A stretch of 64,000 bases of DNA, from IMG/VR virus record IMGVR_UViG_3300045973_000529, positions 126,500-190,499 of that record; one strand, 5' to 3'. Source of the DNA: a virus. Below, piece after piece: positions 34,711 to 44,887 of the stretch. Below the pieces are notes generated by a model, which was not told the origin of the DNA, did no database searches, and saw only the letters and a program-made list of their open reading frames with translations. Every line of letters begins with the position of its first letter. The stretch's first letter is position 1. Both the position numbers and the translations under genes were made by a program.

Positions 34711-34878
34711 TCAGCGATCCAACGGATAGAGTCGCTGGTGGATCGCTGCCTTGGCTTCACGAATCGCGGCCAGCTCTTGCTCGAGCTCGGCCTGGCGAGC
34801 GTTCAGCAGAATCAGATTGGCGCGCATACCTGCGGCCGCAAGTGATTCGTCATGGGTGGCTTCGTATGTCTTCTTCAT
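34711..34878 (-). CDS. 55-aa coiled-coil protein (not in track)
   Basis: MKKTYEATHDESLAAAGMRANLILLNARQAELEQELAAIREAKAAIHQRLYPLDR; ATGA overlap with the methyltransferase. Confidence 0.6.
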   Translation of the reverse strand: MKKTYEATHDESLAAAGMRANLILLNARQAELEQELAAIREAKAAIHQRLYPLDR

Positions 34879-35732
34879 GCTGCTTCCTTGCGTTTCCAGA
34901 TCTTCGGCATGCGGTTGAAGCCGTCATAGACCTTGATGAAATGCGCCTGAATGGCGCGGGTCGTGATGCGTCGTGCTTCACGATACGGGACCTTACCATG
35001 TCCTTCGATAGTGTAGTCATCGAAGTGGCCAATGTTGTCGGCCGAACCATTGAAGCCGGAGCTCTCGACGAGGTAGCCACCGGGGCCGACCAATCGAAGA
35101 ATGTCGGCGACATGCACCAATGGATCGGTGTAGTGCTCGAGCACCTCGAGTGACACAACCACATCGAACTGGCGGTCAGGCAGCTTCGTGTAGTTCACGA
35201 GCGGCAAGAGCCCGAAGTGCTCGGCCGCGACCTGCATGTACCGGACCTGGTCAGGGTTGTCGTTGAACGACGTGACGTTGAAGTCATTCAGCGCCAGATG
35301 TACGGTCGTCAGTCCGTTGCCGTTGTAGATGTCAAGCACTGACATGTCACAGGGTTCTGCGTCACGGTATGGATAGCCACCGATGACATGAGCAATCACG
35401 TCAGGCGAATTCTTCATGACCCGTGTGTCAACCATGCGACCATCAGCGTCCACGTTCCCAGGCTTCAGACCATGGAAGTATTGGACCATGCCGGCAGTGC
35501 AGCACTTTGACTTCTCGAAGCAGTGGATCGCTTCGTAGTTGTACGCTGGGTGTTGGTACACACTGAAGTCGGGCTCACCACCGAGACTGGCTTGCCACTG
35601 AGCGAGCATCTCGGCTCGACCAGGCGTCATCTCAGCCGCGACCATGTCGGAGTACTTGCGATAGTTCGTGCCAGCGTACTTGTTCGTGATGTCAGTGACG
35701 GCACGGGTTGAGATTGAAATTGGTTTGTGCAT
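34875..35732 (-). CDS. class I SAM-dependent methyltransferase
   Basis: VLDIYNGNG...FDVVVSLEVLEH...LVGPGGYLV. Confidence 0.8.
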   Translation of the reverse strand: MHKPISISTRAVTDITNKYAGTNYRKYSDMVAAEMTPGRAEMLAQWQASLGGEPDFSVYQHPAYNYEAIHCFEKSKCCTAGMVQYFHGLKPGNVDADGRMVDTRVMKNSPDVIAHVIGGYPYRDAEPCDMSVLDIYNGNGLTTVHLALNDFNVTSFNDNPDQVRYMQVAAEHFGLLPLVNYTKLPDRQFDVVVSLEVLEHYTDPLVHVADILRLVGPGGYLVESSGFNGSADNIGHFDDYTIEGHGKVPYREARRITTRAIQAHFIKVYDGFNRMPKIWKRKEAA

Positions 35733-38221: not shown

Positions 38222-38443
38222 CTATACCAGAGACTCGATGTACGCTTGTATTTGATCAAGCATCTCCTGTTTGAGAACCGCTGAGCATTTGAACGCGCCA
38301 TCGCTCGATGTGAACTCCCAAAACCTTCGCGGGGTAGAGTAATCCCAAGTGCAGTTGACACAGGTCCCAACGGCTTTACCGTTCACGTGCACTAAACGGC
38401 TGATCCAGGGAGCGCCAAAGACAGGGGCTTGCACCGTCATCAT
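38222..38443 (-). CDS. hypothetical protein
   Basis: 73 aa, ATGA-coupled to the upstream methyltransferase-like gene. Confidence 0.5.
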   Translation of the reverse strand: MMTVQAPVFGAPWISRLVHVNGKAVGTCVNCTWDYSTPRRFWEFTSSDGAFKCSAVLKQEMLDQIQAYIESLV

Positions 38444-39396
38444 ACACGACGCCAGAGGTTCGGTTCTCGCAGTCCGTGACCAGAGCCGTACTGCTTCAGC
38501 GAAGGGCCAGGCTCTCCGAGAATCGTCTTGCCCTTTGCCTTCAGCGAAGCGTTCACGACATCTGCGAGCGCATCGTGGTCACATTCCCAGAATGAACCAT
38601 CGAGCGGATCCTTGCAGCGGATCGTCATGCCCTTGCCGTACCATTCGGCCTTGATCTGCCAGCCGCCGCCCGGGCCAGTCGGTTCGCTTTCAGGCTTGGG
38701 CTCCTTAGCAGCCTTCACCGGCTTGGCGGGTTTCGGCTGCTTGAAGAGCTTTGAGGTGTCGATTTCGGGTTGCACTGGGGGCACTGGAATCTCCTGTTGA
38801 GCGAGTTGTGGTTGACGGCCAAGCATCTTCTCGACCATGTACTTCTCGCCGATATCTGGTGTGTCAGTTTCCGGCCAGGCGCCAAGATCCCGCTCGTCCA
38901 GAACTTCGAGCACTTCGATGAATTCATCATCCGTTCGGCCGAAACTCATGTCGTACTCGAGCGCGGTCGTGCAAACGTGGTTCCGGTGAAAGAGCACCTG
39001 GTCTTGGTCGAGCCCAAGCTGCTCGTGGTACGGGTTGTGGTCGTTCAGATCCTGCGCGATTTGATGAATCTGCCCGATGTCGAAGTGCTCGCCATTCGGC
39101 CAGAATTTCGGATTCGGTTGACCATCAATGAGATAGCCGAGTCGATGTTGCAGCACCCAGTGGTTGTCATCAATCAGCTCAACGCTGAAGAGCATGTTCT
39201 CGAGAATGTGCTTCTCATCGTGTCCGGCCTGAAGGAGGCGCACCTTGATCTCGACCAGAAAGTTTCCATCGCCCGCGGAGGGTTCCAGCCAGCGCTTATT
39301 CGGGTCAAACCAGACGGAATTCGGGAGAGCATCAAGCATCTCCCGAATCAGCGAGCGAGGAGTGAAGACCTCGCCAGTTTGTTTAACTCTTTTCAC
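38440..39396 (-). CDS. N6-adenine methyltransferase-like protein with SAM motif I but no NPPY
   Basis: TGEVFTP...WLEPSAGDGNFLV...FSVELIDDN; no NPPY/NPPF/DPPY in the translation. Confidence 0.75.
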   Translation of the reverse strand: MKRVKQTGEVFTPRSLIREMLDALPNSVWFDPNKRWLEPSAGDGNFLVEIKVRLLQAGHDEKHILENMLFSVELIDDNHWVLQHRLGYLIDGQPNPKFWPNGEHFDIGQIHQIAQDLNDHNPYHEQLGLDQDQVLFHRNHVCTTALEYDMSFGRTDDEFIEVLEVLDERDLGAWPETDTPDIGEKYMVEKMLGRQPQLAQQEIPVPPVQPEIDTSKLFKQPKPAKPVKAAKEPKPESEPTGPGGGWQIKAEWYGKGMTIRCKDPLDGSFWECDHDALADVVNASLKAKGKTILGEPGPSLKQYGSGHGLREPNLWRRV

Positions 39397-40426
39397 GGAA
39401 GATTTTCTGAATTTGTTCGCGAATCAACCACCCAGATTCCAAGCAAGCGTCAATGTATTTTCGGCCTTCTTCACCGTTGATCCAACCTTCAGCAAGTTTT
39501 GCTTCGCTCAGCGTGCTGAACACGAAGCTGTCGATCCCTTGTCTGAACCAAGGATTCGCACCGGACTCATCCAGCCATGCAACTTTCATATAGGAAATCA
39601 TGTTGCCATGCAGATTGACGTGAAGTACAGGCTTACCACTGTATTTTGCTAGTTTATCACGGGCGGCGCTGTGTGTGAATCGATGAAATTTCGGCTGGCC
39701 GTCAGCGCCCAAACAGCTGTAGACCGGAATGGAGTACTTTTCATCTCTCACCTTGCTCGTCTGGCCAAAATCGATACCAACAACTCGCAAAGCAGGAAAT
39801 GATACATTGCACTCTACATCCCGGCGCAAAAACGTCCCCTGAACTCCGCGATCAATCACAAACGCGGTGATTTTTTCAGCCACCAAGAAGTCCTTGCTTG
39901 CATCACGCTCCCACAGCATGGTGGTTGCGTCCATCCAAGCGGTGTATTTGATAGCGCGGTCTGCATCCCTTGCAAAGATATTTACTGGGACCACATACGC
40001 GTGAACAGAGGCATCCGTAGAGTGAATTCCCGTGAGATGCAGGAACTTGTAGTGAATATCGGTCTTGCCGCTGTACGGTGGGTTGCCAACCACCACGTCG
40101 AACTTGAGGCCCATGAGTTGTTGTTCCAATTCTTTGATTGGCTCATTGTAACCAACTTGTAAAACCCTACCCACTCGCATTTGGTTCGCGAGTAGTTCTT
40201 GCTCAGGTGTGTGAGCCACAAAAGTGATGCGATCAAAACTTGCGCCTCGGCTCTTCAGCACTGGCAGGAACCCCAGATCAGAAAGTACAAGGATTGAGCC
40301 ATCGAGTTTGATTCTTGAGAGCATCTGCTCGGCGAGCTCGAACGGGGTCCAAGCGGGTTTCACCGTGTCAGCTGCATAGGCAACATTGATACGTTCAGCC
40401 AGGATCTGGAGGATTGCGGTGTTCAT
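39383..40426 (-). CDS. Eco57I-like adenine methyltransferase with NPPY and degenerate motif I
   Basis: WTPFELAEQML...LSDLGFL...FDVVVGNPPY; start re-called at ATG 40426 (TAGAAT-N7-ATG). Confidence 0.75.
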   Translation of the reverse strand: MNTAILQILAERINVAYAADTVKPAWTPFELAEQMLSRIKLDGSILVLSDLGFLPVLKSRGASFDRITFVAHTPEQELLANQMRVGRVLQVGYNEPIKELEQQLMGLKFDVVVGNPPYSGKTDIHYKFLHLTGIHSTDASVHAYVVPVNIFARDADRAIKYTAWMDATTMLWERDASKDFLVAEKITAFVIDRGVQGTFLRRDVECNVSFPALRVVGIDFGQTSKVRDEKYSIPVYSCLGADGQPKFHRFTHSAARDKLAKYSGKPVLHVNLHGNMISYMKVAWLDESGANPWFRQGIDSFVFSTLSEAKLAEGWINGEEGRKYIDACLESGWLIREQIQKIFREKS

Positions 40427-40467
40427 GCTCGGCATTCTATCCTGAACTGTGAGAGATGAGTAAACCG

Positions 40468-40929
40468 TTACAACGTCAGTGCAGGCAGAATCGGATGAGC
40501 CTTACGATAGCGCATGAGCAGCAGCATCTCGTCGGTATCGTGAATGCCGACCGCATGAGTCTTGAGCAGATCCGAGATTTTGGCTGAATCAAAACCATTT
40601 CGCGTCAGCACTTCGAGCACCTGCGAGATTGACATGTATCCCGCCCGCAATGCTGCGAGCTTGTTACGCAGCGTCAGCTCGACTTGGCCCAGGTCCTTCA
40701 GATCCTGGCCCGTCACACACCAGCGAAACTGCATCCCGATTGAATACACGAGCGAGCGCGGCGGCAGCACGCAGGTTTCTCGCATGATTCGCTCGACCTT
40801 CTCAGCGTCTGACACTGGGAGCTGTGCTTCTGGCATGGTTTGGCCGAGCGGACCAAGTACCATTTTCACAGCCTGGTACATGATCTCGCGATTGCGAGTG
40901 CCTTTCCACTTGATGCGCTCTTTGCTCAC
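40468..40929 (-). CDS. hypothetical protein in the helicase-methyltransferase locus
   Basis: GTGA-coupled to the helicase. Confidence 0.6.
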   Translation of the reverse strand: MSKERIKWKGTRNREIMYQAVKMVLGPLGQTMPEAQLPVSDAEKVERIMRETCVLPPRSLVYSIGMQFRWCVTGQDLKDLGQVELTLRNKLAALRAGYMSISQVLEVLTRNGFDSAKISDLLKTHAVGIHDTDEMLLLMRYRKAHPILPALTL

Positions 40930-43016
40930 AGCAGCTCCAGAAGGTCAGCGGTATCTTGCTTGCGGTACTTGGCGAGCAGCTCTTCTTCGAGCTCTGTTCT
41001 AACCAGCTCGACTTGCACGTTCTTCACAGCGCTCTGGATAGAGTCGGCGCCGATCACGTTCTTCAGTGCGTTCAGCGGAACCACCCAGCCGTCGTCATCA
41101 CCATCGACGCCGTGTAGACCTTCATCCACGTCAGCGAAGGCGTAGTCGTTCTCGGTCAGGCCAGCGTATTGCAGCTTCAGCACGAGATCGACCAGGAAGT
41201 CCTTGAAGGTCTCGAGCGTTTCATCATGCACGATCACATACACGGTGGCCGAGTACTTCTTCCAGCCTTCGGGGCTGTCGATCGAGATCAGCCCGGCCTT
41301 CAGGTTCTTAGTGTCTTCGGGATTGGCACGAACGGCGCGGCCGATCGCTTGCTGGGTGCCGATAACATCGGTGTTGCGCGAGAAGATCACGCAGTTGAAG
41401 GGGTTGATGTCAATGCCTTCCTTCACAACGCTGAACTGGCAGAGCACCGAGTCAGAAGAGAGCTTCACTTGCTCGTAGATCTTCTTGCGATCGCGTGAAG
41501 GCACACCAGCGTGAACAGTTTCCAGCAGTCCGCTGAACTCCGCACGAACGGCCGGGTTGGTGGTGATTTCCTTGCAGATCGGCACGGCCTTGCTAAAGGT
41601 GACCGCGTTGCAGAAGCCGGTCTTCATCATGTCGGTGTGCGCTGCGATGGTACCAGCCGCTTCCACGACGGCTGTGCGCAGGTCAAAGTTTTCACGCTTT
41701 GCGGCCTTCTTCATTGCCGTGTCAAGCCCCTTGAGCTTTGCACCGTCGTGAAGGACCAGGGTCTTGATAATGATCTTCGGGACCAAGATGCCGGTCTTGC
41801 GCAGATCGGAGTACTTGATCTCGCAAAGGAGCGGGCCGTACAGCGTCTCGTCAGTGCCAGACACCAGGCGACCGCGCTTGATGCTGGCCGAAAAGAAGAG
41901 ATTGCGAGCGCTCGGAATCGAGAGCATGTGATCGCGCCGATCGGTCGTCTGCTGCACAGTGTGGTGGAACTCGTCCCAGCAGACCAAATCAGCCTCGATG
42001 TCCTTGGTATCCAGCCCGTCGAAGAGCTTGCCTTCAGATGCGTACGTCACAAACACGAGAGTCTTCTGGGTCATCCACGACACCAGATCGTTCGGCGATG
42101 TGGTCTGCCGGATGTCGGCCCAGTTGTCAGCACTTTCGTCGCCAGTCCTGAAGTGCACGACTGACACGCCATGCACGTGGAACGCGCCGTATTTCTGGAA
42201 GTACTCATGATGTTGACGCAGCAGATCGATGGTGGGAGCGACCACGACTTGCAGCGTGAAGCCGCTTGCGAACCCGTCCATCACGTTCTGATAGATCACA
42301 CGGGTCTTGCCGCCACCAGTGGCGCAGATCACGCGACCGTTGCCACCGTTCTCCATGATGGGTTGGGTTGCAGCGCGCATCACTTGCTGATGTTCCCACA
42401 TTTCAGGAGGATCGACGAAATCGGTGGGTGCCACAGTCGAGAGGTTCACCGTGAGGTTCAGCTCGCGCCAGAAACTCGGGTCGCGATCAATGAAGCTCTC
42501 TTGTTCTTCCTTGCCGATGACTCGCATCCGAGCTGCCAGTGAAGCTGCCATCGGCGCGAAGATGCCATGTTCACCAGTGTTCGAGAGATTCGTGAACCAG
42601 ATGCGACGATTCTTCGAGATATCGAGCTCGTCGCATTGGTCAATGAAGGTGTAAAACGAATCGCGCTTGAATTTGTCGGTCGGGTTCGAGCGATACTTCA
42701 CCTGCAGCAGACATGGTTCGCCGTTGAAGTTTTCATGGGCAAAGTCGTAGCCGGCCTGATACTTGTTCCGGCTCGTGTCGCTGATGTGCTTGACACCAAG
42801 ATGAGGATTCGCGTCGGTGCCGTACCGCGCGAAGAAGAATTCGGTGAACACTTCGTAGGCAGCTCCCACGAAGTCGTTGTACTCCTCGGATCCGGGCTTG
42901 CCGAGCTTCTTGCCGAATTCAGCGATCCGCTTGATCATCATGTCGAAAGACGTGATGTCGGAGAAGACGCCAGACTCGCCGATCGTCTTCGTTTGGAGGT
43001 GGTTTAGCTTGTTCAT
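40926..43016 (-). CDS. Mrr-like nuclease + SF2 helicase fusion (restriction-subunit-like)
   Basis: N-terminal YE...GYD...LLQVKY; ATGGGKT, DEFHH, EGID, QAIGRAVR; start re-called at ATG 43016. Confidence 0.8.
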   Translation of the reverse strand: MNKLNHLQTKTIGESGVFSDITSFDMMIKRIAEFGKKLGKPGSEEYNDFVGAAYEVFTEFFFARYGTDANPHLGVKHISDTSRNKYQAGYDFAHENFNGEPCLLQVKYRSNPTDKFKRDSFYTFIDQCDELDISKNRRIWFTNLSNTGEHGIFAPMAASLAARMRVIGKEEQESFIDRDPSFWRELNLTVNLSTVAPTDFVDPPEMWEHQQVMRAATQPIMENGGNGRVICATGGGKTRVIYQNVMDGFASGFTLQVVVAPTIDLLRQHHEYFQKYGAFHVHGVSVVHFRTGDESADNWADIRQTTSPNDLVSWMTQKTLVFVTYASEGKLFDGLDTKDIEADLVCWDEFHHTVQQTTDRRDHMLSIPSARNLFFSASIKRGRLVSGTDETLYGPLLCEIKYSDLRKTGILVPKIIIKTLVLHDGAKLKGLDTAMKKAAKRENFDLRTAVVEAAGTIAAHTDMMKTGFCNAVTFSKAVPICKEITTNPAVRAEFSGLLETVHAGVPSRDRKKIYEQVKLSSDSVLCQFSVVKEGIDINPFNCVIFSRNTDVIGTQQAIGRAVRANPEDTKNLKAGLISIDSPEGWKKYSATVYVIVHDETLETFKDFLVDLVLKLQYAGLTENDYAFADVDEGLHGVDGDDDGWVVPLNALKNVIGADSIQSAVKNVQVELVRTELEEELLAKYRKQDTADLLELL

Positions 43017-43023
43017 GGATGGC

Positions 43024-43052
43024 ATTATACTGCCATCCCGGAAGAAGTACAC
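43024..43052 (-). promoter_or_regulatory. early promoter GTGTAC-N17-TATAAT, leaderless
   Basis: -10 box 7 nt upstream of ATG 43016. Confidence 0.8.
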
Positions 43053-43060
43053 CACTAAAT

Positions 43061-43083
43061 TGTAACGGTCAGTGACCGTTACA
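43061..43083. promoter_or_regulatory. perfect 11-bp inverted repeat (terminator and/or operator)
   Basis: TGTAACGGTCA-G-TGACCGTTACA. Confidence 0.65.
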
Positions 43084-43493: not shown

Positions 43494-43499
43494 TATTTA
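43494..43499 (-). promoter_or_regulatory. late promoter core TAAATA overlapping the upstream stop codon
   Basis: The TAA of the ART gene is the first half of the motif. Confidence 0.7.
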
Positions 43500-44423
43500 C
43501 GCCTTCTTGGTGGCGAACAGTTTGATATGCTTGGGCAGGATCGTGCCGCGATATGCAACGGATCCGAGCTCCTTGACACCCAGCTTCACTTGATTGTGCA
43601 TGCGCTTCGGATCAACTTCACGGCGTGGATGGAACGCATCGTCTGGCGAGTACTTGCCAGGATCCGGCACCGTGATCTCGAGTACCACATACTTGTCGTC
43701 GCCGTCCTTCACCGCTTGGCGCTTGCCGTAGAACTCAGCCGTCTTCGGGTTCATACCGAGGTAGACGTTGTGTTCCGAGTATCCTTTGATCAGGTCATTG
43801 TAGACTTCGCCAGTGTGACCTGGCTGCAGCCCCTTCTTCTGGATGCTCTCCCAACGCGACCATGACGTGCCGTGGTACAGGACCTGTGGCTTGTTCTTCA
43901 TGATCTTCGTGACGTTGTCCTCCATTGCGAGGACCTCGCCAACCGTCTTGCCGTTCATGCCTGGTTGGATACCCTTGATCACGAAGTCGTCAGTGACTTT
44001 GTACCGCTTGAGGTTCTTCAACGCGTCCTTGAAGGTCTTGATGTCGTTGATGGTCCGCATCCGCGACTTACCGCCAGCATCTTCTTTGGCGATCGTGATC
44101 GTCTTGTCAGCGAACACGATCTTGCCACCAAGATGGTTCCAAAGATCAGTCTCGCCAGGTCTTTCGAGCTTCACGTCTTGGACCTTCTTCTTGCGAGCGA
44201 CCACCGCCTTCCATTCGCCAGAAGCAACGATGCCAGAGTAGACCTCGTTCACGGTGCTTGCAAGGATCAACTGTCCACCGTGGTACAGGAAGTACATGCC
44301 TTCAGCTGGATCGATCCAGCCCGACAACTTCACAGCACCCCAGTACGGGAACTCCTTTTCGACGTTCTCGTGTCGCCAGTCGCGAACTGACTTGGCTTCC
44401 AGCAGAAGTTCAGCTACTTTCAT
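43497..44423 (-). CDS. ADP-ribosyltransferase-fold protein (Tpt1/PARP-like)
   Basis: LYHGTS...SIQKKGL...VYL...AEFYG...VVLEI. Confidence 0.7.
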   Translation of the reverse strand: MKVAELLLEAKSVRDWRHENVEKEFPYWGAVKLSGWIDPAEGMYFLYHGGQLILASTVNEVYSGIVASGEWKAVVARKKKVQDVKLERPGETDLWNHLGGKIVFADKTITIAKEDAGGKSRMRTINDIKTFKDALKNLKRYKVTDDFVIKGIQPGMNGKTVGEVLAMEDNVTKIMKNKPQVLYHGTSWSRWESIQKKGLQPGHTGEVYNDLIKGYSEHNVYLGMNPKTAEFYGKRQAVKDGDDKYVVLEITVPDPGKYSPDDAFHPRREVDPKRMHNQVKLGVKELGSVAYRGTILPKHIKLFATKKA

Positions 44424-44887
44424 ACGGCCTCAATCTTGGATACGCTATCAGGGTCATTGAGAATGCCCTGCATACCGAAGTGCAATGGAGATGGTAGCTC
44501 ATCAAACGAGCACCAGCGATAAGTGGATGTTTCCCAGTTCAGGGTTGGGTTGAACTCGGTGTCCACTACTGCTAGGAAGTTGTGGTACTTGAAGCTGCCT
44601 TTCTTGAAGACGAAGAGCGGTACAAGCTCAAGCTGTCCGTCATAGCCCGCCTCTTCGCGAACCTCGCGTTCAGCTGCCGCCTTCGGTGCTTCTCGACCGT
44701 CAATCGCACCACCCCAAGTCCCCCAAGTCCCTGGTTCTTCCACGTCCTTGGATCGCTTTGGCATGCAGATACGCTTGGTGTCCCTAGCAATGATGACACA
44801 TCCAGCCCCGGCTTTACCCCAAAACCCAGTGCGTTCTAGGGTTTTCGCGTGTTGTTCATTGCTCTCAAAGAGCTCTGCCACCAGCAT
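44420..44887 (-). CDS. NUDIX hydrolase
   Basis: Complete NUDIX box GGAIDGREAPKAAAEREVREEAGY. Confidence 0.9.
   Translation of the reverse strand: MLVAELFESNEQHAKTLERTGFWGKAGAGCVIIARDTKRICMPKRSKDVEEPGTWGTWGGAIDGREAPKAAAEREVREEAGYDGQLELVPLFVFKKGSFKYHNFLAVVDTEFNPTLNWETSTYRWCSFDELPSPLHFGMQGILNDPDSVSKIEAV

What the first reader, a model, noticed from the sequence alone, without database searches (positions are those of the whole stretch)
38440..43083. Phage-borne restriction-like system: nuclease-helicase plus two complementary half-degenerate adenine methyltransferases
Seen: an Mrr-like (QxK) nuclease fused to an SF2 helicase, a coupled 153-aa ORF, an Eco57I-like protein with GNPPY but a decayed SAM motif (LSDLGF), and a second protein with an intact SAM motif (EPSAGDGNF) but no NPPY. 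Known: a functional N6-MTase needs both motif I and motif IV. Inference: the two proteins may assemble into one methyltransferase in trans and partner the helicase-nuclease, like a split Type ISP/IIG/III enzyme. The early promoter suggests a role against host DNA or co-infecting phages, or in self-marking.
Basis: partly seen in the sequence, partly recalled or inferred. Interest (0 to 1): 0.8.

Follow-up and report, generated by a model that had tools for sequence, protein, structure and literature searches.

The report
Phage restriction motor with three-piece methylase
A large phage carries, as separate genes, the parts of a "Type ISP" restriction enzyme (a DNA-cutting motor, a DNA-reading methylase body and a stand-alone cofactor-binding half-methylase), a widespread but unstudied way of building such enzymes.

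Summary

- **P0001 (40926-43055):** the closest solved relatives of its family are the Type ISP enzymes LlaBIII and LlaGI (E 2.5e-30 and 1.7e-24). Its D104/Q118/K120 align with the LlaBIII nuclease triad. Single-chain relatives fuse this motor to an Eco57I-type methylase.
- **P0003 (39383-40435):** it folds as a complete M.TaqI-like two-domain methylase (Z 18.5). It has NPPY, but its cofactor loop (LSDLGF) is non-canonical. That loop is conserved across the family, so it is not decay.
- **P0004 (38440-39396):** this is only the AdoMet-binding half (motifs X, I, II, III) and stops where motif IV would begin. It also carries a C-terminal module shared with DNA glycosyltransferases and GIY-YIG proteins.
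- **Gene order:** motor, then NPPY protein, then half-methylase recurs in more than 15 divergent phage contigs. Other phages have true half-plus-half gene pairs.
- **Against simple complementation:** stand-alone halves also sit beside methylases with canonical motifs.
- **P0002:** specific to this phage lineage.

Verdict: a phage-borne, multi-subunit variant of Type ISP restriction-modification. Assembly of the methylase in trans is plausible but unproven. The scan has already noted this kind of system in at least 26 other genomes. I found no experimental paper on it.

The parts
43059..43083 (-). Upstream element: inverted repeat GTAACGGTC-ACT-GACCGTTAC running into GTTACAAT (43059-43066). A candidate phage promoter or operator, or the terminator of the gene before.
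   Evidence: Sequence read. GTTACAAT occurs 6 times in the window against 0.53 expected, 5 of them on the minus strand. Function is inferred.
42426..43016 (-). P0001 residues 14-210: Mrr-type PD-(D/E)xK nuclease domain (E68, D104, Q118-x-K120). The probable true start codon is at 43016.
   Evidence: phrog_7683. E68, D104, Q118 and K120 are invariant in 31 relatives. D104/Q118/K120 align with LlaBIII D78/Q92/K94. The domain is a separate ORF in some relatives.
41196..42413 (-). P0001 residues 215-620: SF2 helicase-like ATPase (motifs GGGKT, DEFH, SAS, QAIGRAVR).
   Evidence: Pfam DEAD, ResIII and Helicase_C. phrog_16. The family profile finds LlaBIII at E 2.5e-30 and LlaGI at 1.7e-24. ATPase motif residues are invariant.
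40929..41195 (-). P0001 residues 621-709: conserved C-terminal tail of the motor. It is the candidate contact (coupler-like) with the methylase subunit.
   Evidence: It is conserved in relatives and lies directly before the methylase part in the fused forms P0140 and P0156 (HelC model). The role is inferred.
40468..40929 (-). P0002, 153 aa, translationally coupled to P0001. Lineage-specific, function unknown, not part of the conserved unit.
   Evidence: No Pfam, PHROG, PADLOC or NCBIfam hit. Only two close homologues, at 91% and 85% identity. Unrelated ORFs of 79, 183 or 274 aa, or none, occupy this place in other modules.
40112..40435 (-). P0003 residues 1-108: the methylase's own N-half, with motif X (TPFE) and non-canonical, conserved motif I (ILVLSDLGFL), II (TFVAHT) and III (VGYN).
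   Evidence: Alignment A1. AF2 strands b1-b3 at pLDDT above 95. Aligned with M.TaqI from residue 28.
39836..40111 (-). P0003 residues 109-200: catalytic half. Motif IV KFDVVVGNPPY has NPPY at 40073-40084. Strands b4-b7 follow.
   Evidence: N118, P119 and P120 are invariant. Pfam Eco57I hit at 108-129. The family profile matches CamA, M.TaqI and BseCI from motif IV onward.
39386..39835 (-). P0003 residues 201-350: target-recognition domain, exchanged between close relatives.
   Evidence: The model aligns with M.TaqI through its C-terminal DNA-binding domain (Z 18.5, 301 residues, rmsd 3.9). Relatives that are 54-82% identical over the first third have unrelated C-terminal parts.
38941..39396 (-). 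P0004 residues 1-152: stand-alone AdoMet-binding half. It holds motifs X (EVFTP), I (EPSAGDGNF), II (VELID) and III (NHVCTTAL) and ends where motif IV would begin.
   Evidence: A3 invariants. AF2 pLDDT above 90. Aligned with M.EcoKI 150-260, CamA 26-158 and LlaBIII 868-1009 (Z 4.7-6.0). A viral Atlas cluster of 157-aa proteins matches it.
38827..38940 (-). P0004 residues 153-190: conserved tail (RDLGxWPETDTPDIGE) found only in this subfamily. Possibly a docking segment.
   Evidence: Conserved in A2 and A3. The role is inferred.
38443..38667 (-). P0004 residues 244-318: C-terminal module after a Lys/Pro-rich linker, probably for DNA binding or targeting.
   Evidence: The same module ends TAGT (PF20691) DNA glycosyltransferase-like proteins (P0123, P0126) and follows a GIY-YIG(-like) segment in other proteins (P0129; Pfam GIY-YIG hit in P0058). 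AF2 gives pLDDT of about 85-95.

Best explanation
P0001, P0003 and P0004 are the separately encoded subunits of a phage-specific relative of the single-chain Type ISP restriction-modification enzymes.

P0003 is an M.TaqI-like body made of a catalytic domain plus a target-recognition domain. It reads a short DNA site and flips the target adenine into its NPPY pocket (inferred).

P0004 is a stand-alone AdoMet-binding half with a DNA-targeting tail. It is the cofactor-handling partner of P0003, either supplying or gating the methyl donor that P0003's own altered loop no longer binds in the canonical way (inferred).

P0001 is an Mrr-type nuclease joined to an SF2 translocase. It docks on the site-bound methylase, pulls DNA with ATP and cuts unmodified DNA. 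Methylated phage DNA is spared (inferred by homology with LlaGI and LlaBIII).

In a lytic jumbo phage the likely targets are host DNA or co-infecting phages. P0002 is a local passenger.

Shown: homology, domain content, conservation of catalytic residues, gene linkage and gene fusions. Inferred: every activity, the physical complex and the biological target.
For: 1. The P0001 family profile hits LlaBIII (E 2.5e-30, covering nuclease core plus both RecA domains) and LlaGI (1.7e-24) ahead of all other solved helicases. D104/Q118/K120 align with LlaBIII D78/Q92/K94.
2. E68, D104, Q118, K120 and the ATPase motifs are invariant in 31 relatives.
3. Fusion evidence: P0140, P0208 and P0274 join this motor to a canonical Eco57I/N6_Mtase domain. 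P0156 joins it to a P0003-type domain (ILVISDVGIL ... GNPPY), and an N-half ORF follows it.
4. Linkage: the order motor, NPPY protein, N-half ORF is seen in the window and in L001, L002, L006, L022, L028-30, L043, L101-104, L106, L111, L114, L119, L122 and L124, in differing surroundings.
5. Among loci fetched with the NPPY protein as bait, nearly all NPPY proteins with a degenerate motif I have an N-half ORF within 3 kb. L112 has none, and in L101 two such proteins share one.
6. P0003 folds as a whole M.TaqI-like enzyme (pLDDT 88.7; Z 18.5 over residues 28-350). NPPY is invariant and the C-terminal domain is swapped between close relatives.
7. P0004 keeps every AdoMet-contacting motif under strong conservation, with 60-87% identity across metagenomes.
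8. True split pairs exist, with a C-half ORF starting at motif IV beside an N-half ORF: P-SSM2, S-CAM7, L010, L027, L031, L034, L044 and L046. Two loci have one N-half and two C-halves. These show that the stand-alone half is used with catalytic halves that have no cofactor site of their own.
9. In two other lineages the enzyme's own N-half is also degenerate while the extra half is canonical: L047 (FADLFSTAGLF) and L008.
Against: - P0003 is predicted to be a complete seven-stranded fold, so there is no vacant place for P0004's strands in the usual geometry.
- Its altered pocket residues (D53, H75, Y96) are conserved, so it may bind AdoMet or another ligand by itself.
- Stand-alone N-halves also occur next to methylases with canonical motif I (L018, L019, L039, L108). 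The half therefore has some role beyond replacing a lost site.
- Most loci were fetched with the N-half as bait, which inflates adjacency counts.
- No activity, methylation motif or physical interaction has been measured for any member, and no paper on the family was found.
- Self-protection and the restriction target are unknown.
Confidence: 0.5

Rival explanations
1. P0003 is a self-sufficient adenine methylase with an unusual AdoMet pocket that works with the P0001 motor-nuclease. P0004 is not a catalytic partner. It is a regulator, for example an AdoMet sensor or a timer of methylation against restriction, or a competitor that modulates the methylase.
For: P0003 has a complete, confident TaqI-like fold. 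Its pocket positions are conserved rather than drifting. N-half ORFs also accompany methylases with canonical motif I (L018, L019, L039, L108).
Against: P0003 lacks the Gly-rich loop and the motif II acid that bind AdoMet in solved gamma-class enzymes (sequence). C-half-only genes paired with N-half genes cannot be explained this way. A degenerate own motif I goes strongly with presence of the extra half.
Confidence: 0.25
2. P0003 is a catalytically dead site reader that only aims the P0001 nuclease-motor, so the system is restriction-only against host or rival DNA. The phage protects itself in another way. P0004 acts independently on DNA through its C-terminal module.
For: P0003's motifs I and II are non-canonical. 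The nuclease and ATPase residues are invariant. P0004's C-terminal module is shared with other DNA-acting enzymes and is modular.
Against: NPPY and the residues around it are invariant in P0003 relatives, which is not needed for binding alone. P0004 is tightly and translationally coupled to P0003 across distant lineages. A half Rossmann fold is unlikely to be an enzyme on its own.
Confidence: 0.15
3. The genes are unrelated neighbours. P0001 is the phage's UvsW-like recombination or replication helicase, and P0003 and P0004 are orphan or decaying methylase genes kept only by synteny.
For: The locus sits among replication and recombination genes: SbcCD-like, primase, DnaB-like helicase and endonuclease VII. 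T4 UvsW is also hit by the family profile, at E 9.7e-19. Cyanophage helicases resemble the motor part.
Against: LlaBIII and LlaGI score far better and include the nuclease domain. The motor is covalently fused to the methylase in four relatives. The trio recurs in different genomic surroundings. Both methylase-like proteins are strongly conserved.
Confidence: 0.05

Closest known systems
Type ISP restriction-modification enzymes LlaGI and LlaBIII (PDB 5ffj, 4xqk; PMC4666363, PMC3553950)
   Same: N-terminal Mrr-type nuclease with the same D...QxK triad, followed by an SF2 helicase-like ATPase, then a gamma-class adenine methylase and a target-recognition domain in the same order along the DNA. 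They are the best solved-structure match of the motor family. Single-chain relatives of the window's motor have exactly this layout.
   Different: Here the parts are three proteins, not one chain. The methylase body has a non-canonical cofactor loop, and there is an extra stand-alone AdoMet-binding half with no counterpart in LlaGI or LlaBIII. The recognition domain is TaqI-like. The system is encoded by a lytic phage, not by a bacterial plasmid. Identity to LlaBIII is low and detectable only with a profile (one search found nothing with the single sequence).
M.TaqI, CamA and M.BseCI (gamma-class N6-adenine DNA methyltransferases, Pfam Eco57I/N6_Mtase)
   Same: The P0003 model superposes on M.TaqI over both domains (Z 18.5, 301 residues, rmsd 3.9). 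NPPY motif IV is identical. P0004 superposes on the N-terminal half, CamA 26-158.
   Different: The solved enzymes carry motifs I to IV in one chain with a canonical AdoMet loop. In the window the canonical loop (P0004) and NPPY (P0003) are on different proteins.
Naturally split DNA methyltransferases (M.AquI and M.EcoHK31I alpha/beta subunits; recalled from memory, not checked here)
   Same: One methylase fold delivered by two polypeptides from adjacent genes.
   Different: Those are C5-cytosine enzymes split at a different point. Here the split lies between motifs III and IV of an N6-adenine enzyme, both gene orders occur, and in the window one partner still holds a full fold.
MANTIS (Gao_RL) defence system (bioRxiv 10.64898/2026.09.23.753747)
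   Same: A methylase that needs accessory proteins, together with a separate helicase-nuclease effector, acting on short asymmetric sites. This is a precedent for multi-subunit, helper-dependent methylation.
   Different: Different protein families: a AAA+ loader MtsA and MtsB in place of a half-methylase. The PADLOC scan of the window's proteins listed only weak PbeA and DinG hits for P0001. MANTIS is bacterial, not phage-borne.

Membership tests
Type ISP restriction-modification enzymes | N-terminal Mrr-family PD-(D/E)xK nuclease with D...QxK | tested here: met
   P0001 D104/Q118/K120 align with LlaBIII D78/Q92/K94 and are invariant in 31 relatives.
Type ISP restriction-modification enzymes | SF2 helicase-like ATPase directly after the nuclease | tested here: met
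   Pfam DEAD, ResIII and Helicase_C. Profile match to LlaBIII residues 75-600 at E 2.5e-30.
Type ISP restriction-modification enzymes | Coupler domain between ATPase and methylase | tested here: inconclusive
   P0001 residues 621-709 are conserved and precede the methylase in fused relatives, but they lie outside the LlaBIII match. P0002 has no detectable relation.
Type ISP restriction-modification enzymes | Gamma-class N6-adenine methylase with AdoMet motif I and NPPY in the enzyme | tested here: inconclusive
   NPPY is present in P0003 and canonical motif I only in P0004. Whether they form one active site is untested.
Type ISP restriction-modification enzymes | All domains in a single polypeptide | tested here: not met
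   Three or four separate ORFs. Single-chain forms exist only in relatives.
Type ISP restriction-modification enzymes | ATP-driven translocation, cleavage on collision and hemimethylation of an asymmetric site | not testable with these tools
   Needs biochemistry and methylome sequencing.
Gamma-class N6-adenine DNA methyltransferase (Eco57I/TaqI type): P0003 | Motif IV (D/N)PP(Y/F) after strand b4 | tested here: met
   KFDVVVGNPPY, with N118, P119 and P120 invariant.
Gamma-class N6-adenine DNA methyltransferase (Eco57I/TaqI type): P0003 | Canonical AdoMet motifs I ((D/E)PxxGxG) and II (acidic residue at the end of b2) | tested here: not met
   LSDLGF and FVAHT stand in their place, conserved family-wide. 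The Pfam Eco57I score of 22.9 is below the cut-off of 25.3.
Gamma-class N6-adenine DNA methyltransferase (Eco57I/TaqI type): P0003 | Seven-stranded class I fold followed by a target-recognition domain | tested here: met
   AF2 pLDDT 88.7. M.TaqI Z 18.5 over residues 28-350.
Gamma-class N6-adenine DNA methyltransferase (Eco57I/TaqI type): P0004 | Motifs X, I, II and III | tested here: met
   EVFTP, EPSAGDGNF and VELID are conserved. The structure matches the N-half of M.EcoKI, CamA and LlaBIII.
Gamma-class N6-adenine DNA methyltransferase (Eco57I/TaqI type): P0004 | Motif IV and strands b4-b7 | tested here: not met
   No (D/N/S)PP(Y/F/W/H) anywhere. The methylase similarity ends near residue 152-160.
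Type III restriction-modification (Mod/Res) | Res with a C-terminal nuclease, and a beta-class Mod (motif IV before motif I in one chain) | tested here: not met
   The nuclease is N-terminal. P0003 has the gamma order X-I-IV-TRD. The ResIII Pfam hit only reflects the shared helicase fold.

The most novel reading that the evidence does not exclude
The stand-alone AdoMet-binding half is a diffusible cofactor subunit that must engage the methylase body for methyl transfer, whether that body is full-length, split or present in several versions with different recognition domains. Phages would then build adenine methylases combinatorially from one cofactor half plus exchangeable catalytic and recognition halves. 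They could use presence of the half, or AdoMet supply, to switch a Type ISP-like machine between marking its own DNA and cutting foreign DNA.
Probability: 0.3. Interest if true: 0.8.

Novelty: new variant of a known kind. Interest (0 to 1): 0.6.

Why it matters
Type ISP enzymes are known as single chains from a few bacterial plasmids. This locus and its many relatives suggest a large family of the same machine, seen here mainly on phage-like contigs, taken apart into subunits.

The methylase arrangement is unusual: a full fold with an altered cofactor site plus a separate canonical cofactor half. The literature I could search does not describe it.

If the pieces work together, three things would follow:
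- A natural example of an enzyme split between motifs III and IV.
- A modular route to new methylation specificities.
- A new class of phage weapons against host DNA or rival phages, with possible use as programmable methylases or nucleases.

It also means that standard annotation is likely to miss half-methylase ORFs or label them hypothetical or truncated, as most relatives seen here were.

Tried and rejected
- **Complex prediction:** P0003 (alignment A1) with P0004 residues 1-195 (A3) and SAM scored 0.00. The tool's verdict was 'no answer', so this counts neither for nor against binding.
- **Megablast** of the locus against phage records found nothing.
- **tblastn of P0003** against phage records found nothing.
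- **phmmer of P0001 alone** against PDB found nothing. Only the family profile reached LlaBIII.
- **PADLOC and NCBIfam** gave no meaningful family for any of the four proteins.
- **hhalign** of the P0003 family against P-SSM2 gene 038 showed no relation.
- **P0002** had no hit in Pfam, PHROGs, PADLOC or NCBIfam, in the fetched loci, or in the ESM Atlas features and structure searches. It has only two near-identical homologues.
- **Cyanophage helicase:** I considered using the helicase two genes from the P-SSM2 half-pair as linkage evidence and rejected it. That helicase occurs in 362 cyanophage records against 47 with an N-half, lacks the nuclease domain, and may be UvsW-like.
- **Genome scan:** the first try failed for lack of a conserved stretch. 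The second found one weak Streptomyces hit. The scan relies on patterns, so it only suggests, and does not prove, that the close family is viral.
- **Literature searches** for split or heterodimeric adenine methylases in phages found no description of this arrangement.
- **Sigma-70 scan** found no promoter upstream of P0001.
Full report
**Setting.** The window is the last 64 kb of a 190,499-bp IMG/VR virus record that CheckV rates 52% complete. PHROG hits to baseplate, SbcCD-like, primase, DnaB-like helicase and endonuclease VII genes show a large myovirus. Its DnaB-like helicase is nearest, at 37-39% identity, to jumbo phages of Xanthomonas, Ralstonia and Escherichia. No close relative is in the phage collection.

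**Observation.** Four minus-strand ORFs fill 38440-43055:

| Protein | Coordinates | Length |
|---|---|---|
| P0001 | 40926-43055 | 709 aa |
| P0002 | 40468-40929 | 153 aa |
| P0003 | 39383-40435 | 350 aa |
| P0004 | 38440-39396 | 318 aa |

P0001 and P0002 overlap by 4 nt, and P0003 and P0004 by 14 nt. Pfam finds DEAD/ResIII/Helicase_C in P0001. It finds only sub-threshold Eco57I and N6_Mtase hits in P0003 and P0004.

**The motor-nuclease.**
- An exhaustive search gave 544 relatives of P0001, 60 of them at E<=1e-30.
- A profile of 31 of them finds LlaBIII (4xqk, E 2.5e-30, profile 86-575 on chain 75-600) and LlaGI (5ffj, 1.7e-24) as the best of all solved structures. These rank ahead of XPB-like helicases and T4 UvsW.
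- The alignment places P0001 D104, Q118 and K120 on LlaBIII D78, Q92 and K94.
- E68, D104, Q118, K120 and the ATPase motifs are invariant in the family. The 'Mrr-like QxK nuclease plus SF2 helicase' is therefore confirmed, and it is specifically of the Type ISP kind.
- In some relatives the nuclease domain is a separate ORF before or after the helicase.
- Four relatives are long single chains. In P0140, P0208 and P0274 the motor is followed by a canonical gamma-class methylase with motif I of the DPxxGxG type and NPPY. In P0156 it is followed by a P0003-type domain.
- A pattern-based scan of one genome for each of 185,579 prokaryote species found only one weak hit. The contigs with close relatives look phage-like.

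**P0003.**
- AlphaFold2 with 19 relatives gives a confident model (pLDDT 88.7) with all seven strands of a class I methylase and a second domain.
- It superposes on M.TaqI over residues 28-350 (Z 18.5, 301 residues, rmsd 3.9 A) and on CamA and M.BseCI. It is a whole enzyme body, not a half.
- NPPY is invariant. The cofactor motifs differ from the canon: ILVLSDLGFL for motif I, TFVAHT for II and VGYN for III. These variants are nearly invariant in the family, so they are a conserved state.
- The first third of the protein is 54-82% identical in relatives whose C-terminal parts are unrelated. This is the signature of exchanged recognition domains.

**P0004.**
- Its first ~150 residues carry motifs X, I, II and III with strong conservation, at 60-87% identity over many metagenomes.
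- The model (pLDDT above 90 for residues 10-180) aligns with the part of M.EcoKI, DrdV, CamA and LlaBIII that runs from motif X to just before motif IV (Z 4.7-6.0, about 100 residues).
- A 157-aa, all-viral Atlas cluster has the same shape.
- The methylase similarity stops exactly where fused relatives continue with KFDVVVGNPPY.
- After a subfamily-specific conserved tail and a Lys/Pro linker comes a 75-aa module. That module also ends TAGT DNA glycosyltransferase-like proteins and GIY-YIG(-like) proteins. This suggests a DNA-binding or targeting role.

**Linkage.** I built HMMs of each part and scanned 119 fetched loci.
- The order motor, NPPY protein, N-half ORF is found in the window and in at least 17 distinct contigs with different flanks.
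- Contexts fetched from the motor side agree (L122, L124, L125).
- In loci fetched with the NPPY protein as bait, nearly all proteins with a degenerate motif I have an N-half ORF within 3 kb. L112 is the only locus without one.
- The ORF between motor and methylase is variable. P0002 has only two close homologues.

**Half-genes elsewhere.**
- In Prochlorococcus phage P-SSM2 a 193-aa ORF begins MKFTLAIGNPPY. The next ORF, of 132 aa, holds motifs X to III and ends where motif IV would start. S-CAM7 has the same pair.
- Metagenomic contigs show both gene orders. Some have one N-half followed by two C-half genes (L031, L044), and some have three tandem C-halves (L116-118). Such catalytic halves have no cofactor site of their own, so the stand-alone half must serve them if they are active.
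- In a further common layout, a ResIII helicase protein ends in a degenerate N-half (FADLFSTAGLF) and the next ORF starts at NPPY. A canonical N-half ORF precedes both (L047 and more than 20 others).
- Counter-examples exist. N-half ORFs also flank methylases with canonical motif I (L018, L019, L039, L108).

**Reading.** Homology, fusions and linkage make a Type ISP-like machine split into subunits the best-supported account.
The canonical cofactor motifs and NPPY are on different proteins, and real half-pairs exist.
- It is partly wrong. P0003 is a full fold with a conserved, altered pocket, and the extra half is not restricted to deficient partners.
- Three readings of P0004 remain open: cofactor subunit, regulator or independent factor. 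All activities are inferred.

**Prior knowledge.**
- I found no paper that describes the arrangement.
- The MANTIS preprint is a functional analogue, with helper-dependent methylase plus helicase-nuclease, but it uses other families.
- Notes of this scan already record the same kind of system in at least 26 other genomes, with the same closest family. Those are AI notes. I reached the reading independently before seeing them.

Noticed in passing
window 43014-43029 and 40424-40440 (minus strand): P0001 and P0003 both begin MPSMN. The DNA before them is alike: TATAAT or TAGAAT, then GCC, then about 4 nt, then ATGAAC, with TGTAACGGT further upstream of each. This suggests a repeated promoter or start element and very short leaders.
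   Followed up: partly
window 25061, 33472, 34594, 40145, 43059 (minus strand), 48824 (plus strand): GTTACAAT occurs 6 times against 0.53 expected. Several copies lie just upstream of gene starts, so it is a candidate phage promoter -10 element.
   Followed up: partly
L047:4617-9680 and more than 20 similar metagenome loci (L050, L053, L055, L059, L060, L062-L066 and others): A three-gene unit: a canonical N-half ORF (~220-250 aa), then a ~1100-aa ResIII helicase protein ending in a degenerate N-half, then a ~345-aa ORF starting at NPPY. The methylase is split between motifs III and IV in the normal gene order.
   Followed up: partly
L031:2189-4011, L044:66-2213, L116:1176-3252: One N-half gene is followed by two C-half genes, or three tandem C-half genes sit with no N-half in view. 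This hints at one cofactor subunit serving several catalytic and recognition subunits.
   Followed up: no
window 38443-38667; proteins P0123, P0126, P0129, P0058: The 75-aa C-terminal module of P0004 is a mobile module. It is also attached to TET-associated glycosyltransferase (PF20691) proteins and to GIY-YIG(-like) proteins.
   Followed up: partly
window 43497-44887: A Tpt1/KptA-like (PF01885) 308-aa ORF is followed by a NUDIX hydrolase, directly upstream of the module. A Tpt1-like ORF also precedes the module in L001.
   Followed up: no
window 34875-35732: A 285-aa class I SAM methyltransferase (Methyltransf_11/23) lies downstream. A similar gene lies downstream of the module in L001 (11393-12271), so part of the wider synteny is shared.
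   Followed up: no
L002:1927-4240: The terminase large subunit of a related phage is split into two ORFs (261 and 508 aa, both Terminase_6N). This is another split gene in this phage group.
   Followed up: no
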